Source: Octopus vulgaris
Taxonomy: Eukaryota
Direction: 5' to 3'
Length of the DNA: 64,000 nt
Assembly: GCA_951406725.2 (NCBI GenBank)
Contig: OX597818.1
Coordinates: 31,744,001 to 31,808,000, forward strand
Below, piece by piece: positions 29,879-63,477 of this stretch. The notes under the pieces were generated by a model. The model had not been told where the DNA came from and did not search any database. It was given only the letters and a program-made list of their open reading frames with translations. Within the stretch, counting starts at the first letter, position 1. Every line of letters begins with the position of its first letter. The translations under genes and the position numbers were made by a program.

Positions 29879-30225
29879 TGCAGCTACGTTCTGAGTTCAA
29901 ATTCCGCCGAGGTCGACTTTGCCTTTCATCCTTTCGGGGTCGATAAATAAAGTACCAGTTACGCACTGGTTTCGATGTAATCGGCTTAATCTGTTTGTCT
30001 GTCCTTGTTTGTCTCCTCTGTATGTAGCCCTTTGTGGGCAGTAAAGAAACAGGTATTTCGTCTGCCGCTAAGTTCTGAGTTCAAATTCCGCCGAAGTCGA
30101 CTTTGCCTTTCATCCTTTCGGGGTCGATTAAATAAGTACCAGATACGCACTGGGGTCGATATAATCGACTTAATCCGTTTGTCTGTCCTGGTTTGTCCCC
30201 TTTGTGTCTAGGCCTTTGTGGGTAG
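29879..30225 (+). mobile_element. SINE family B, head-less tandem dimer
   Basis: Two ~180-bp tandem units, each with B box GAGTTCAAATTCC, Meta-like core and CCTTTGTGGG tail. Confidence 0.9.
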
Positions 30226-30329
30226 TTATAGGTTCATTTAGTAAAGTAGCTTTAAATATATTATGCCTGAGGAACCGCTACATTAACGCTCGTTCTGCTA
30301 AAATACAGGAATAAGTTTCCATTATATAC

Positions 30330-30718
30330 ATTCTTTTCTACTCTAGGCACAAGGCCCGAAATTTTTTTGAGGGAGAGTCAGTCGATTAGATCGACTCCAG
30401 TACGCAACTGGTACTTAATTTATCGACCCCAAAAGGATGAAAGGCAAAGTCGACCTCGGCGGAATTTGAACTCAGAACGTAAAGGTAGACGAAATACTAC
30501 CCACAAGGGCTAAACACAGAGAGGACAAACAAGGACAGACAAAGGGATGAATTCGATTACGTCGACCCCAGTGCGTAACTGGTACTTAATTTATCGACCC
30601 CGAAAAGATGAAAGGCAAAGTTGACCTCTGCGTAATTTGAACTCAGAACGTAGCGACATATGGAATACCACTAAGCATTTCGCCCGGCGTGCTAACGGTT
30701 CTGCCAGCTCGCCGCCTT
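30330..30718 (-). mobile_element. SINE family B, dimer with complete head and two different tails
   Basis: Head AAGGCGGCGAGCTGGCAGAACCGTTAG, core, tail 1 (CCCTTGTGGG), second core, tail 2 (GGGCCTTGTGCCTAGAGTAGAAAAG). Confidence 0.92.
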
Positions 30719-30960
30719 CCATTATATATAATTACCTTCTTAAAGGAAGCAAGCATGCTTGTGAAATACTGTTCCAGGTAATCAAAATAATGGGATGGTC
30801 ATGGCTGGAATATCTTTAAACCAAAGTCTACTTGATCAAAGTTGACTTTGGCGTTAAAGACCAACTACAATATCGAGCTAAATCACACCAAGGTACAATC
30901 TAAAACATACGAACATGGAGATGTCTCAAGCGATGCTTGACATATATATAGACATATATA

Positions 30961-38176: not shown

Positions 38177-38497
38177 TTATATATTAACAGTCACACACAC
38201 TCGAATCTCCTGCAAATTAACATGGGTTCCCATGACGACAATTTAAGCTTCTTTTGATTACGGTATCTTTGACCTAACGAGTAGCTAGCGGATTATCCCT
38301 CGTTCCGGTAATTACTACCTCCGTGGTTCTGCTAGCGAAGAAACATATGTAACCTGGATTTTATCTACACCGTTCCTTAATTTTGGGTTTCTATTCGCAT
38401 ACACTACAGCCCCAGCTGCTAACCGTAAACTATAAAACAATTTTATCAGCTTATCGAACTTCGCTATGGGAAAAAAATTACAACATTCTACGTGAAA

Positions 38498-39250
38498 ATT
38501 ATTTACATTATTTACATTATTTACATTTGACGATATTTGTCCTCATCTTGTTTGGACGCACTAGTATACCAATAAAAAGTTGATGGAAATGTTGGCCTTC
38601 TGTGTAGAAACTACCTATTTCAGTATAGACACTGATATATATCGACAAGAAGAGGGTTTAACTATGGGTTCGCCATTATCACCGATAATAGCCAATGTAT
38701 ACATGGCATACGTTGAGAATTTGGCTTTAGGATGAACACCACTAAAACCAACTGCTGCGATATGTTGATGACACCTTTATTCTCTGGCCTCACCAGGAAG
38801 ATGTCCAAGTGCTGTTAGATCATGTGAACTCAATAAAGACATCCATACATTTCACAATGGAAAAGGAAAAAGGCAATGAGCTAGCATTCCTGGACGTATT
38901 AATAACACGCACCAAGAATGGATTCAGGTCATCCATATACCGCAAGCCGACCTTCATTGGACGATACCTTAACTCCAACTCACACCATCCATACAGTGTA
39001 AAGAGAGGAATTGCTCAGTGCCTAAAACTTCGAGCAATGAATATAAGTAATGATCAAGATACCCACCACGAAGAAATGATCAAGCTCAGTAACAATCTAT
39101 TAAGCAACAACTACCCCCAAAAACATACTATCTACTCCAATTATGAAGAAAAGAGGGGATGAAACCGATAAACAGTCCACAGTTTGTCTACCCTATGTGA
39201 AAGGCCTCTCCGAAAAGATACAAAAGATATGCGGCTCATATGACATCAGC
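38498..39250 (+). mobile_element. Penelope-like element (Poseidon-type) remnant: inverted terminal segment (38498-38554) fused to a 5'-truncated RT pseudogene (38555-39250)
   Basis: RTSIPIK/LMEMLAFCVETTYF..YRQEEGLTMGSPLSPIIANVYM, LRYVDDTF, IHFTMEKE..LAFLDVLI, IYRKPT..RYLNSNSHHP, VCLPYVKGLSEKI; stops and frameshifts; GIY-YIG part missing. Confidence 0.92.
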
Positions 39251-47118: not shown

Positions 47119-47330
47119 TTCTTGCCCACAAGGGGCTAGACATAGAGGGGGACACACAAGGACAGACAAAGGGATTAAGTCGATTACATCGACCCCAGTG
47201 CGTAACTGGTACTTATTTAATCGACCCCGAAAGGATGAAAGGCGAAGTCGACCTCGGCGGAATTTGAACTCAGAACGTACCGCTAAGCATTTCGCTCGGC
47301 GTGCAAACGGTTCTGCCAGCTCGCCGCCTT
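47119..47330 (-). mobile_element. SINE family B, young full-length-like copy
   Basis: Head to CCCCTTGTGGGCAAGAAA tail, little decay. Confidence 0.92.
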
Positions 47331-48158
47331 ATGTATATAGAATTGATATTCTACTGCCGCTCATGTTAAGGCTGAATATTCTTCTTCAAATATTGTTCCT
47401 TGTGCTGCCTTTTTCCTTGTCATTTTTCTAAGTATTATTTTTCTAGATGCTGGTTATATATTTTCTTTATTGCATTGTTACTGTTATTTCAATCTCCGTG
47501 TAATCTCCGTGCTACTTGTTTTTCATTTTCTCCGGTTTTTGTTAGAAATTTAAGGAAATTGGCCGTGTTATTTTATCCACTAAACACAGATTTGATTAAC
47601 TTTGATAACAGATAATACTATGCAATCCCAAACGTACCGTGGATGTCAATTATCTGACAGCATACATTTGATCACAGAGACAACATACGTGTAAACAATC
47701 ACGAAAAACAGAGATAACATTTGAAACAGCTGCACATCCATTAATGGAAATAATATAAAAATAAAGACAATATTTACTTTCACAAACATCACAGAAACGG
47801 AACAGCTAAGCTGAACTGCTATCTATTTAGTATAGTAACCAAATTTTTGTGGAGAGAATTCTTAACGTCTTTAAGATGGAAGTTCCGTGTTTAAAATCCT
47901 GAATCTTAGGACAACATGGTTTATAAATAAGATACTCCTGCTACATTTAGAAAGGTCAATGGAATGTTCCAATCGATCACCTTTCAAATAACTGATTGGA
48001 ATTGACCGACAACAGTAATATCAAAGTATGCGAATAACACAACCAAAGCATCGAACTCTCACTCCTTCCCCCTTGTCTCTCTCTCTCTTTCTCATTCAAA
48101 CACTCACATTCATCCAGACACACTCATTCACAGACACGCTCACACATTCACACACACA

Positions 48159-52924: not shown

Positions 52925-53854
52925 AACATTCACACACACATATACATACATGTATGCACACAGACATGCATATATGTATATTAAAACACACATACACAAA
53001 CCTTCATATAAATATATGCATGTGTATATGTTTGACTTTATGCATATATATATATATATACATGTCTGGGTGTGTCACTGCGTTCATGCGTTCGCGTGCG
53101 TGTCTATGTATATATAATGGACATAGAATGTACGAGTAAATGAAAGATTGCCTATATATGCAGTGATGAGTGAGTGTACAACATCTGTAACTTATTGGCT
53201 TTCCCTAGTTTCGACTGCCTCATGCATTTTCATGGTAATTCGAACTGATAATCTGCGCTTTGTATGTGTCTTAATCTGAAGTTAACGACTTCGATTGTTT
53301 AAAATGGCTTGGTAAGGCGTGGGGCAATCTGATGTTGTGTGGCGAGGTGAAGTTCTATGCGAGTTTGTGTGCCGAATGTTTGAATCTTCTGCTATCAGTT
53401 TGTGCTGAATCGATATCAGTGACTTCTAATTCTGAATGCGGCATAACCTTTATTGGAAAATAAATTAATTTAGGCAAAATCTGTGATATTATTGTACATA
53501 TGGGGCTAAATTTATCAGATATTCTTTAAGAATATGGCAGCAAGGGTCGTGAACTAAAATATGCTAGTCAGCCAGATAAAATATCACTGAGTTGGAAAAT
53601 ATTGTTGCAGCTTCTAATCATTAAAGAGAAACCCTGACATAAATGCAGATTATCGATGTGACTCAGAGAATAATGTGCAACGGATTAACTTGTTGCAACT
53701 TAGATGTAATCGGAAACATATTTTAGCGACGTCATAGATGTACTAGAAATGTCTGTTATTGTTAGAAATCTTTAATATCTTCAGGGCTCTTTTACTAAGT
53801 TAAAATGACCGAAGGAATGGAATACGTTGCAAAAATACATTACTGAAATATTTG

Positions 53855-54531
53855 CTCTTTAACTTGTTTCAGTCATTTTACTGCGGCCATGCTGGAGCAC
53901 CGCCTTTTAGTCGAGCAAATCTACCCCAGGACTTATTCTTTGTAAGCCTAGTACTTAGTCCATCGGTCTCTTTTGCCGAACCACTAAGTTACGGGGACGT
54001 AGACACACCACCATCGGTTGTCAAGCGATGTTGGGGGAACAAACACAGACACACAAACATATACATACACACATACATACATACATACCTACATACATAC
54101 ATACATACATACATACCTACCTACATACATACATACATACATACATACATACATACATACATACATACACACACATACATACATACATACATACATACAT
54201 ACATACATACATACATACATACATACATGTATATAAAATTACAAAATGGGACAAGAACGCAAAACATTAAAATAGACGATACAAAAAACACGGACGGATC
54301 ATTCGAACCATCTAATCTTCAGTCAAGAACCGGATCATCCTCGCAATTTCGGCTGATATACATATATACGACGGGCTTCTTTCAGTGTTCGTCTACCAAA
54401 TCCACTCACAAGGCTATAGTCAGCCCGAGGCTATAGTAGAAGACACTTTCCTAAGGTGTCACGCAGTGGGACCGAACCCGTAACCATGTGTTTGGTAAGC
54501 AAGCTACTTACCACACAGCCACTCCTACGCC
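53855..54531 (-). mobile_element. SINE family A, full length, with expanded internal microsatellite interrupted by an unrelated ~125-bp insert (54234-54358)
   Basis: Both halves match 59663-60148. Confidence 0.92.
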
Positions 54532-54789
54532 TATTTAGTCAAAATCCTGTCTGAAATTTGGTTTACATTTAATTATGCATAGATTTACATCTTAGGCGTA
54601 CAGCACCAAACATTTTGGTGAAATTCTGGCGTAGGTCCTGCCGGAATGAACTGCAAATTCGACTCCAGTGAGATATGAACTCAAAACATTAACAAACGTA
54701 TTTAAATTCCACGTAATTTTTATCCTCTGCTTTAATGATTCTCTCAGTTCACTAGACTATGTAGCTATACTAAATTTATAAATTCCTTT

Positions 54790-55001
54790 AAGGCTGCGAG
54801 CTTTCAAACTCGTTAGTACGTCGAGCAAAACGTTTAGCGGTGTTTCGTATGTCTTAAAGGCGTTGAGTTCAAATTCCGCCGACGTCAAGTTTGCCTTTCA
54901 TCCTTTCGGTGTTGATAAAATAAGACCCATTTGAACACTGACATCGATGTAATCGACTTACCCCTCCCCCAGAATTGCAGGCATTATTTCATAATTTGAA
55001 G
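54790..55001 (+). mobile_element. SINE family B, degenerate
   Basis: Head, B box, TTTGCCTTTCATCCTTTCGG core. Confidence 0.85.
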
Positions 55002-55193
55002 CCGAAATCAAATTCCTTTGTGAGTAACTAGTTGACCACCGAGCTATGGTATCACAAATACTGTGAGTACGGAAGGAAATATATTAAATCCAGCTTGAAG
55101 CCGAGATATACTCCACCTTTTACCTAAATATCTCACAAAGTCTCTGAAGATTAGAAGCTGGACAGAAAAGAAAAAAATACAAGTTAAATTGCT

Positions 55194-55380
55194 ACAGTTC
55201 TATATTTAAGAGATGAGGAATTATGTTCATTATTTACATTATTTACATTCGACAGATATTTGTCCTCATCTTGTTTGTTGTTAACACAACATTTCGGCTG
55301 ATATTCCCTCCAGCCTTCTTCAGGTGTCTTGGGGGGGGGGGATTTCGAACCTGGGTTCTCATTCCTAAGGTATTTTTCGA

Positions 55381-55419
<39 letters not shown>

Positions 55420-55510
55420 GATTATTATTATTATTGTTCAGGTCACTGATTGGACCGGAACTCGGAATCTTGGTGTTAGTAGCTCGCGCTCTTAACCACT
55501 ACACCATATG
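55194..55510 (-). mobile_element. tRNA-headed SINE (family D) with internal (AAT)n, hammerhead ribozyme and Penelope-derived 3' end
   Basis: A box TGGTGTAGTGG, degenerate B box GAGTTCCGGTCC, (AAT)n, hammerhead at 55283-55328; 55229-55277 matches 38507-38554. Confidence 0.8.
55283..55328 (-). ncRNA. Minimal type I hammerhead ribozyme
   Basis: GACAC-CTGAAGA-A-GGCTG-(10 nt)-CAGCC-GAAA-TGTT-GTGTT; stem I GACAC/GTGTT, stem II GGCTG/CAGCC; GAAAT probably a CpG transition from GAAACGTT. Confidence 0.75.
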
Positions 55511-55559
55511 TAGCACTAAATTATTTAAGTTCATTTCGGCAAAAGGCTACCAAGGATAA

Positions 55560-59270: not shown

Positions 59271-59662
59271 ACATCCAATAGTAAATGGAAAAGCATCGTA
59301 ATACTAAATTCCTACAAAATGAAGACAACACCTCGAACAAGATATATATATTTAGACCCTTGATAAGACATGCGTGAGAAATCTGACAACGAAAAGAAAT
59401 TTATAGGGTTGCAAAAAACACTAGTTTCATCAGTCCCAAAACAATACAAATGCGCAGACAAAAAAAATGAAGTCCATTGCGATCTCTTTCCCTACGCCAT
59501 AGCTTTTCTCTTTTTCTCATTTCTCTCCCATATATTTCTTTCCTACATAACACATTCTGTTCACTCAGAAGTTAATGTTTTCCTATTTCTAACTATATAA
59601 CCAAGCTTAATTTTGTGCAAAATATATTTTTACTCGATTTGAAACAAATACATACATAAATG

Positions 59663-59841
59663 GGCGTAGTAGTGGCTGTGGCGTAAGTAGCTTGCTTACG
59701 AACCACATGGTTCCAGGTTCAGTCCCACCGCATGGCACCTTGAGCAAGTGTCTTCTACTATAGCCTCGGACCGACCAAAGCCTTGTGAGTGGATTTGGTA
59801 GACAGAAACTGAAAGAAGCCGGTCGTATATATGTATATATG

Positions 59842-59889
<48 letters not shown>

Positions 59890-60148
59890 TGTGTGTGTGT
59901 GTGTGTGTCTGTGTCTGTGTCTTTGTGTGTTTGTGTATGTTTGTGTGTTTGTGTTTGTCCACCCAACATCACTTGACAACCGCTGCTGGTTTGTTTACGT
60001 CCCCGTAACTTAGCGGTTCGGCAATAGAGATCGATAGAATAAGTACTAGGCTTACAAAGAATAAGTCCTGGGATCAAATTGCTTGACTAAAGGTGGTGCT
60101 CCAGCATGGCCACAGTCAACTGACTGAAACAAGTAAAAGAGTAAAAGA
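59663..60148 (+). mobile_element. SINE family A (tRNA head, CORE-like block, internal microsatellite, CR1-like tail), full length
   Basis: TGGCTGTGGCGTAAG...GGTTCAGTCCC...CCTTGAGCAAGTGTCTT...(TA)n(TG)n...CAGCATGGCCACAGTCAACTGACTGAAAC-(AGTAAAAG)n. Confidence 0.93.
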
Positions 60149-60179
60149 TAGATACGTACGTATATACATACACAAACAC

Positions 60180-60210
<31 letters not shown>

Positions 60211-60401
60211 TACATATTTAGCTATGAGCACACTGAGCAAGTAGCCCAGGGACCTCATGTGTCTAAGGGTCCAATTTTGATCTATGTATTCTGTGGCTTG
60301 TTGTGTCGGTAAGTAAATAAACTAGAACCGAATGTACTTATTGTCCGGAACCTATAGTGCTGCTAAAACGCCCCTGTGTGTATGTGCGTATGCATATATA
60401 C

Positions 60402-62727: not shown

Positions 62728-62758
<31 letters not shown>

Positions 62759-62947
62759 GTATGTATGTATGTATGTACGTATGAATGTATGTATGTATGT
62801 ATGTGTGAGTATGTGCATGTGTGAATATGTGGGTGTGTGTATGTATGTATGAGCATATGTATGTATCTATGTATGTATGTATGTATGTATGTATGTATGT
62901 ATGTATGTATGTATGTATGTATGTATATACATGTACGTATATATATA

Positions 62948-63440
62948 GCCGCATGTGTGGCTGTGCGGTATGAAACTTGCTTCTCAACCATATAGTTCCG
63001 GGTTCAGTCCCACTGCGTAGCACCTTGGACAAGTATCTTCTACTATAGACTCGAGGTCGACAATGGCCTTGGAAGTGAATTTGGTAGACGGAAAATGAAA
63101 GAAGCCCGTCGTGATATATATATATTTATATATGTGTGTGTGTGTGTGTTCGTGTGTCTGTGTTTGTCTCCACCACCATCACTTGACAACCGATGATGGT
63201 ATTTTTACGTCCACGTAACTTAGTAGTTCGATAGAAGTAGTTATTACTACTTCTATCGAACTACTAAGTTACGTGGACGTAAAAATACCATCATCGGTTG
63301 TCAAGTGATGGTGGTGGAGACAAACACAGACACACGAACACACAAAGGCTTACAAAGAATAAGTCTTGGGGTCGATTTGTTCGACTCAAAGCGGTGCTTT
63401 ATCATGGCCGCAGTCAAATGATTGAAACAAGTAAAAGAAT
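62948..63440 (+). mobile_element. SINE family A containing a perfect internal inverted duplication (63143-63344)
   Basis: Matches 59663-60148 apart from the hairpin insert. Confidence 0.93.
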
Positions 63441-63477
63441 ATATATATATACATAATGCATATATATGTGCCTGTAA

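What the first reader, a model, noticed from the sequence alone, without database searches (positions are those of the whole stretch)
55194..55510. Candidate Penelope-dependent SINE: tRNA/Pol III head + (AAT)n + hammerhead ribozyme + Penelope pLTR tail
Seen: on the minus strand a tRNA-like head (A box TGGTGTAGTGG, degenerate B box) is followed by (AAT)n, a minimal hammerhead (CTGAAGA, GGCTG/CAGCC stem II, GAAA, GACAC/GTGTT stem I) and a tail CAAACAAGATGAGGACAAATATC..AATGTAAATAATGTAAATAAT. The same tail occurs at 38498-38554, fused in inverted orientation to a Penelope RT. Known: SINEs normally take their 3' end from a LINE partner, Penelope pLTRs carry minimal hammerheads, and schistosome Sm-alpha repeats combine Pol III boxes with a hammerhead. 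Inference: this is a Pol III, ribozyme-bearing non-autonomous element mobilised by a Poseidon-type Penelope RT/GIY-YIG enzyme. I do not know of such a SINE-Penelope pair being described in cephalopods, but cannot check.
Basis: partly seen in the sequence, partly recalled or inferred. Interest (0 to 1): 0.9.

Follow-up and report, generated by a model that had tools for sequence, protein, structure and literature searches.

The report
Penelope retrotransposon with built-in tRNA promoter
This stretch is not a separate SINE but the terminal repeat of a protein-coding Penelope retrotransposon, which carries a piece of an arginine tRNA gene exactly where most of its copies begin, so it likely uses a tRNA-type promoter to shed over ten thousand short, SINE-like, ribozyme-bearing copies of its own end.

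Summary
In detail: tRNA-like head, (AAT)n, minimal hammerhead and tail are linked in many copies. But the head is not SINE-specific. In 20 of 29 RT-selected loci the Penelope ORF runs through RT and GIY-YIG to a stop about 30 nt before the same head. The 'tail' is the first 54 codons of that ORF, with the hammerhead in frame. Short and ORF-linked copies have the same majority sequence and share both subfamilies. So 55194-55510 is a solo pseudo-LTR of an autonomous Penelope/Poseidon-type family. The unusual part is the head. It derives from tRNA-Arg (44/73 ungapped; 0 of 5000 shuffles), keeps consensus A and B boxes while its stems have decayed, and marks a sharp 5' boundary: 77 of 91 head-bearing places begin there, and copy number falls about sixfold across 58 nt. 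None of 17 hammerhead-bearing distant relatives has such boxes. Most likely the head is an internal Pol III promoter at the element's transcription start (inferred; RNA-seq was uninformative). Rival: a reverse-transcription fold-back hotspot. I found no description in my paper searches; Repbase, Dfam and SINEBase could not be checked. New variant of a known kind.

The parts
55194..55510 (-). Solo pseudo-LTR (pLTR) copy of an autonomous Penelope-like family; subfamily with CUGAAGA core
55437..55510 (-). tRNA-Arg-derived head; this copy starts 2 nt inside the usual head start
55496..55506 (-). A box (one CpG-type change from the family majority)
55452..55461 (-). B box, degenerate in this copy (3 of 10 changed); canonical in the family majority, so this copy is likely not transcribed from it
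55381..55436 (-). (AAT)n spacer
55360..55362 (-). Likely start codon of the Penelope ORF (frame broken just downstream in this copy by a C-run expansion)
55283..55328 (-). Minimal type I hammerhead, overlapping the ORF in frame; predicted cut between 55288 and 55287; stem III palindrome decayed here
55194..55228 (-). About 35-nt PLE 'tail', present on one arm only in most two-arm insertions; continues into the ORF body in full-length copies
38497..38554 (-). Inverted, tail-less pLTR piece of the same family at the 5' junction of an RT fragment
38555..39250 (+). Broken RT fragment of the same family (stop and frameshifts; no endonuclease part or 3' pLTR follows)

Best explanation
[quoted passage not shown] Shown: full-length layout is [head-(AAT)n-ATG/hammerhead-tail]-ORF(RT, GIY-YIG)-[head-(AAT)n-hammerhead-(tail)]; most copies begin at the head. 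Inferred: RNA starts about 7-8 nt before the head, 13-14 nt before the A box. The element's RT/endonuclease primes at the tail and copies back to that RNA 5' end, giving a complete 260-330-nt unit. The template is either a short transcript from any pLTR (SINE-like, in trans) or the 5' pLTR of the long RNA (in cis). Fold-back of the cDNA end on the small hairpin at the RNA start, and template jumps, would give the frequent inverted arms. The hammerhead is predicted to work only as a dimer, and cutting would separate the start codon from the ORF.
For: ORF end followed by the head in 20 of 29 RT-selected loci, through to hammerhead/tail in 19. L046 has an open 569-codon frame ending about 30 nt before the head. 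The tail runs on into the ORF body, and the hammerhead translates in frame like homolog P0004. 5' ends: 77 of 91 head-selected places end within -8..+15 of the head start, 52 within -8..-1; 9 continue into the ORF; 5 end at -13..-22. Corrected 21-mer counts are about 30,500 (tail), 12,900 (head), 2,100 (just upstream) and 440 (RT); loss per 100 nt is 0.46, 3.1 and 0.18. All 7 body-bearing copies that reach the head start stop there. Head versus G000's tRNA-Arg(TCG): 44/73 ungapped, 0 of 5000 shuffles. Stems decayed (2/7, 1/4, 3/5, 3/5 pairs) while A and B boxes stay consensus. No T4 run on the sense strand of the pLTR majority or at any site shared by 15% or more of copies over 2,393 nt of ORF; 1 of 41 long frames of relatives lacks T4. 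Inverted arm in 60 of 91 places; exactly one arm has the tail in 37 of 41 classable two-arm places.
Against: No transcript start was seen: RNA-seq reads lay equally in both directions with no sharp starts or ends. The T4 absence is weak (P 0.07 dinucleotide, 0.10 synonymous shuffle), G4 runs are also absent, and a majority is being compared with single copies. The 5' pile-up coincides with a small hairpin, so fold-back could make it without a promoter. The spacer is longer in short copies (median 62 nt, n=121) than in ORF-linked 3' pLTRs (22 nt, n=57; P 5e-9; not significant within the head-selected set, P 0.11), which may mean some separate propagation. One body-bearing locus (L225) extends upstream of the head. 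How an uncapped Pol III RNA would be translated is unexplained.
Confidence: 0.6

Rival explanations
1. The head is a passive tRNA relic in the 3' UTR. Short copies are ordinary 5'-truncated Penelope copies that pile up where the cDNA folds back on the hairpin at -8..+3.
For: The commonest called end is -8 (20 of 91), mostly in head-to-head palindromes; inverted arms in 60 of 91; long and short copies are indistinguishable.
Against: The hairpin is only 4-5 bp, yet loss there is 7-17 times faster than on either side, including across the 6-bp hammerhead stem. Ends at -7/-8 also occur without a palindrome (L144, L178, L280, L290). The boxes are kept while the stems decay.
Confidence: 0.2
2. Transcription does start at the head but by Pol II, as for the internal promoter of Drosophila Penelope; the tRNA piece only opens chromatin or binds TFIIIC. 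Short copies come from priming at the 5' pLTR of the mRNA.
For: D. virilis Penelope has a LINE-like internal promoter in its pLTR (PMC2377424, passages). The ORF needs translation. Body-bearing copies stop at the same boundary.
Against: Start position and A/B spacing are those of a tRNA gene; no T4 on the sense strand (weak).
Confidence: 0.1
3. An independent SINE lineage: short masters propagate on their own over many generations, using the Penelope enzyme.
For: Head-starting units outnumber ORF-linked ones about five to one; their spacer is longer.
Against: The head is part of the partner. Identical majorities and shared haplotypes: GTCA 15 long/34 short, AACG 5 long/13 short, among 54 long and 114 short. 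The only short-only linked variants (6 copies) match the pattern expected from mis-aligned inverted arms (my reading).
Confidence: 0.1

Closest known systems
EN+ Penelope-like elements, Penelope/Poseidon type (PMC8557442 passages; PMC4209133 parts 1-2 of 4)
   Same: RT plus C-terminal GIY-YIG, pLTRs, inverted 5'-truncated arms, 30-40-nt tail on one end, minimal hammerhead with bulged nucleotide after A9 and palindromic 15.2-16.2; most hammerheads dispersed as truncated copies.
   Different: pLTR holds a tRNA-derived A/B-box module at the copy-start boundary; hammerhead overlaps the ORF start in frame (0 of 8 relatives with a 5' hammerhead showed an open frame across it).
Helenus, Ajax, Cassandra (TRIMp3; PMC10886601 passages)
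   Same: Small-RNA-derived Pol III promoter inside a terminal repeat, with boxes kept and RNA structure lost.
   Different: Those are non-autonomous LTR elements with PBS, PPT and TSDs; that paper argues their autonomous partners must use Pol II and are unlikely to share long LTR sequence. Here the autonomous element itself carries the module.
Metazoan non-LTR retrozymes as pLTR-derived non-autonomous PLEs (bioRxiv 10.64898/2026.07.22.740005, parts 1-3 of 5; PMC7761336 passages)
   Same: Non-coding, hammerhead-bearing, pLTR-derived, dependent on PLE enzymes.
   Different: Defined as tandem arrays with a ribozyme per unit; here dispersed monomers and inverted pairs that begin at a tRNA head. 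No tRNA head is mentioned in the parts read.
Schistosome Sm-alpha / Sj-alpha SINE-like repeats (PMC6765202 passages)
   Same: Promoter followed by a hammerhead in a short repeat.
   Different: Not tied to a Penelope ORF in the passages read; sequence homology not tested.
Octopus OK/OR1/OR2 SINEs (Ohshima and Okada 1994; paper not held)
   Same: tRNA-derived heads; a tRNA-Arg origin of OR1/OR2 is recalled, not checked.
   Different: OR1 or OR2 is cited as a CORE-SINE (PMC4824008, PMC4758252 passages); this unit has no room for a central domain between head and ORF start. Sequences could not be compared.

Membership tests
EN+ Penelope-like element | Single ORF with RT and C-terminal GIY-YIG | tested here: met
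   P0001 hits RVT_1 (E 2.7e-6, just under the cut-off) and has no Pfam GIY-YIG hit itself. It aligns end to end at 40% with P0070, whose C-terminal part passes the GIY-YIG cut-off.
EN+ Penelope-like element | Direct pLTRs from partial tandems | tested here: met
   Same repeat before the ORF and after it.
EN+ Penelope-like element | Inverted 5'-truncated arm and 30-40-nt tail on one end | tested here: met
   60 of 91 with an inverted arm; 37 of 41 with the tail on exactly one arm.
EN+ Penelope-like element | Minimal hammerhead in the pLTR | tested here: met
   Majority fits the descriptor; only core position 7 varies between subfamilies; 51 of 211 copies keep core, G10.1-C11.1 and palindrome. 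Cleavage itself untested.
Penelope/Poseidon clade | [quoted passage not shown] | tested here: met
   By eye in alignment A1, criterion from PMC8557442.
Penelope/Poseidon clade | Placement in an RT tree with named references | not tested
   No named reference sequences were held.
tRNA-derived SINE | tRNA-derived head with A and B boxes | tested here: met
   Rfam tRNA score is only 10.8 bits, E 8.4; ARAGORN finds 0 genes in 60 loci.
tRNA-derived SINE | Pol III transcription | not testable with these tools
   Standard RNA-seq showed no starts.
tRNA-derived SINE | 3' end shared with an autonomous partner | tested here: met
tRNA-derived SINE | Composite with a head foreign to the partner, evolving as its own lineage | tested here: not met
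   Head is in the partner; shared majorities and haplotypes.
Non-LTR retrozyme | Head-to-tail tandem array with a hammerhead in each unit | tested here: not met
   Monomers and inverted pairs in 91 places; the one tandem (L159) repeats units that stop before the ribozyme.
TRIMp3 (Helenus/Ajax/Cassandra) | Two LTRs around a non-coding core with PBS, PPT and TSD | tested here: not met
   The repeats flank a Penelope ORF; no direct TSD at the window copy (flanks).

The most novel reading that the evidence does not exclude
An autonomous, protein-coding retrotransposon captured a tRNA gene promoter and is transcribed end to end by RNA polymerase III (no TTTT over about 2.7 kb of sense strand). It acts as its own SINE through the same promoter in every pLTR, and an in-frame hammerhead decides whether the RNA keeps its start codon.
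Probability: 0.2. Interest if true: 0.85.

Novelty: new variant of a known kind. Interest (0 to 1): 0.58.

Why it matters
How Penelope-like elements are transcribed, where their RT primes and what their hammerheads do are open questions. This family gives sharp, countable boundaries (RNA start at a tRNA head, two 3' ends 35 nt apart) and a promoter whose polymerase can be tested in one in vitro experiment. If Pol III drives it, it blurs the SINE/autonomous divide and shows one route by which a SINE can be born from inside its partner. In practice, over ten thousand such units would be mis-annotated as tRNA-SINEs, and Penelope counts would be understated.

Tried and rejected
Rfam on the window region gave only simple-repeat noise and no hammerhead; L010 gave only a palindrome-driven miRNA hit. 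ARAGORN found nothing in the window or in 60 loci. The look-up of sequencing runs: no RNA holder listed; 20 rows in six organism labels hold part of the stretch, of which only X15 was laid. Laying three raw RNA runs and one contig set: 9,614, 7,571 and 6,768 reads laid, both directions equal, 80-83% running on into unlike sequence, no sharp ends, no splice or circular joint among the rows shown. I read this as passenger transcription or unstranded libraries, uninformative on Pol III; these runs may be from a related species. Contig depth also rises at the head but is not a copy number, so it was not used. A supposed second B box after the (AAT)n is coding sequence. Six short-only linked variants were rejected as an alignment artefact of an imperfect palindrome in the head. 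Searches misclassified long copies through poor references and were superseded; one search timed out and was redone. Earlier-findings look-ups returned nothing. Ohshima and Okada 1994, Albertin 2015 and Lunse 2016 were not held. Only 50 of the 70 tail-to-body junctions were analysed.

Full report
Observation. This copy is decayed: three B-box positions differ from the family majority and the stem III palindrome has a C-to-T change. The piece at 38497-38554 is 93% identical to the tail and sits inverted against a broken RT fragment. The window lies in G000, a 2.8-Gb assembly in 227 contigs. I did not identify the organism.

It is a large family. Exact 21-mers occur 10,433 times (tail), 3,681 (head), 935 (just upstream of the head) and 170 (RT), with reversed controls at 0. 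Corrected by the exact-match rate in loci not selected on each word (102/298, 37/130, 29/66, 22/57), these give about 30,500, 12,900, 2,100 and 440 arms. An independent estimate from a 44-mer gave about 20,000 heads. These count arms, not insertions, and are probably low because the sampled loci are the best-scoring ones.

The head belongs to the autonomous element. Of 29 loci chosen only for RT similarity, 20 run from RT through the endonuclease region to the head, and 19 go on through (AAT)n to hammerhead and tail. Two jump to the tail without the head, and 7 lack the 3' end. L046 holds an open 569-codon frame (P0001) that stops about 30 nt before the head. P0001 hits RVT_1 and aligns at 40% over its length with P0070, which carries a Pfam GIY-YIG domain. 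No linker Zn finger is visible, which points to the Penelope/Poseidon type by the criterion in PMC8557442 (passages); no tree was built. At the other end, the tail continues into the ORF body. The ORF's likely start codon lies inside the repeat (window 55362), and the hammerhead is read in frame, matching the N-terminus of homolog P0004. So the whole finding is the pseudo-LTR. The 3' ends are bimodal, about 35 nt apart; 60 of 91 places have an inverted arm, and in 37 of 41 classable two-arm places exactly one arm has the tail. These are the PLE hallmarks described in PMC8557442. The second site in the window is the same kind of inverted junction.

No separate SINE lineage was found. Majorities of 54 ORF-linked and 114 short copies are identical, both main haplotypes occur in both classes, and divergence is about 5% in each. 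The sites that differed were CpG sites inside the selecting motif. Six short-only linked variants fit mis-aligned inverted arms. Against this, the spacer is longer in short copies (median 62 versus 22 nt; not significant within the head-selected set). 5' pLTRs of body-bearing copies lie in between (P 0.03 against 3' pLTRs, 0.11 against short copies).

What is unusual. The head aligns without gaps to G000's own tRNA-Arg(TCG) at 44 of 73 positions, the best of the tRNAs fetched, against a maximum of 37 in 5,000 shuffles. Its stems are broken (2/7, 1/4, 3/5, 3/5 pairs versus 7/7, 4/4, 5/5, 5/5), but the A box and B box are consensus and at tRNA spacing. Copies begin there: of 91 places chosen by an internal 44-mer, 77 end within -8..+15 of the head start (52 within -8..-1), 5 at -13..-22, and 9 continue into the ORF (three loci called short were moved to the long class). 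Loss per 100 nt is 3.1 across the boundary against 0.46 downstream and 0.18 upstream. Seven body-bearing copies that reach the head start also stop there, though L225 extends further. As a control, 17 of 80 distant relatives from metagenome contigs carry the same kind of hammerhead, and none has an A/B-box pair before it; a looser scan of 16 of them found no B box. The sense strand has no shared T4 run over the pLTR and 2,393 nt of ORF, whereas 40 of 41 long frames of relatives have some. This is weak evidence: P is 0.01-0.10 by null model, and G4 runs are absent too.

Mechanism. Shown: the anatomy, the boundaries, the tRNA origin and the shared ancestry of short and long copies. Inferred: RNA starts at about -7/-8, a purine after a pyrimidine 13-14 nt before the A box, as expected for a tRNA-type Pol III promoter (established knowledge, recalled). 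The Penelope enzyme primes at the tail and copies to the RNA's 5' end. The template may be a short transcript from any pLTR or the 5' pLTR of the long RNA; my data do not separate these. Fold-back on the 4-5-bp hairpin at the RNA start and template jumps give the inverted arms. The hammerhead has the architecture that PMC4209133 (parts 1-2 of 4) reports to cleave weakly and only as a dimer; only core position 7 varies between subfamilies, and 51 of 211 copies keep an intact core. RNA-seq did not help: reads were abundant, strand-symmetric and without sharp ends. Confidence is about 0.95 that this is the pLTR of an autonomous PLE and about 0.6 for the full Pol III-start model. Rivals are a fold-back hotspot (0.2), a Pol II start (0.1) and an independent SINE (0.1).

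Comparison and novelty. PLE pLTRs with minimal hammerheads, dispersed truncated copies and pLTR-derived non-autonomous retrozymes are known (PMC4209133; PMC8557442; PMC6765202 and PMC7761336 passages; bioRxiv 10.64898/2026.07.22.740005 parts 1-3 of 5, supplements not seen). D. virilis Penelope has an internal, LINE-like promoter in its pLTR (PMC2377424 passages). Pol III modules in terminal repeats are known for non-autonomous LTR elements (PMC10886601 passages). I found no report of a tRNA-derived promoter in the pLTR of an autonomous PLE in nine full-text searches, judged from the listings and from the papers opened. Two cephalopod repeat surveys (PMC13282606 parts 1-2 of 3; PMC8967140 passages) list Penelope and SINE classes without such a description; their supplements and libraries were not seen and may hold this family. 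Subscription papers, Repbase, Dfam and SINEBase could not be checked. Verdict: it works like a Penelope-dependent SINE but is a member of the Penelope family itself; new variant of a known kind; interest 0.58.

Noticed in passing
L097, L103, L105, L119, L126, L129, L135, L143, L161, L168 (downstream of the head): The (AAT)n spacer is a landing pad. 3' ends of LINEs with a CCHC knuckle and a PD..D-type nuclease (Dong/R4-like, name recalled) and a roughly 580-nt non-coding AAT-flanked element sit inside it; L103 and L143 resume the pLTR after the insert. This explains part of the 17 of 91 heads with no tail downstream.
   Followed up: partly
P0001, P0002, P0003, P0004, P0006: The second motif of the GIY-YIG domain reads YKG instead of YIG in this subgroup.
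   Followed up: no
window 55190-55195 and 55510-55515: Six bases at the 5' junction are the reverse complement of six at the 3' junction; possibly a tiny inverted arm, possibly chance (flanks).
   Followed up: no
L159: Short tandem array of three partial units (head to just before the ribozyme) followed by one full unit.
   Followed up: no
L321 (metagenome contig): The relative with the highest-identity long match (48%) also lacks T4 runs in its ORF but has a T-rich 3' UTR and no A/B boxes before its hammerhead.
   Followed up: partly
window, e.g. 29879-30733, 47123-47344, 54789-55003 and 53851-54537, 59644-60214, 62728-63455: At least two other interspersed repeat families recur many times in the window; neither shares this head.
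   Followed up: no
L181-L210: Many top tRNA hits in G000 are slightly varied tRNA-Lys(TTT) copies, perhaps a pseudogene or SINE expansion.
   Followed up: no
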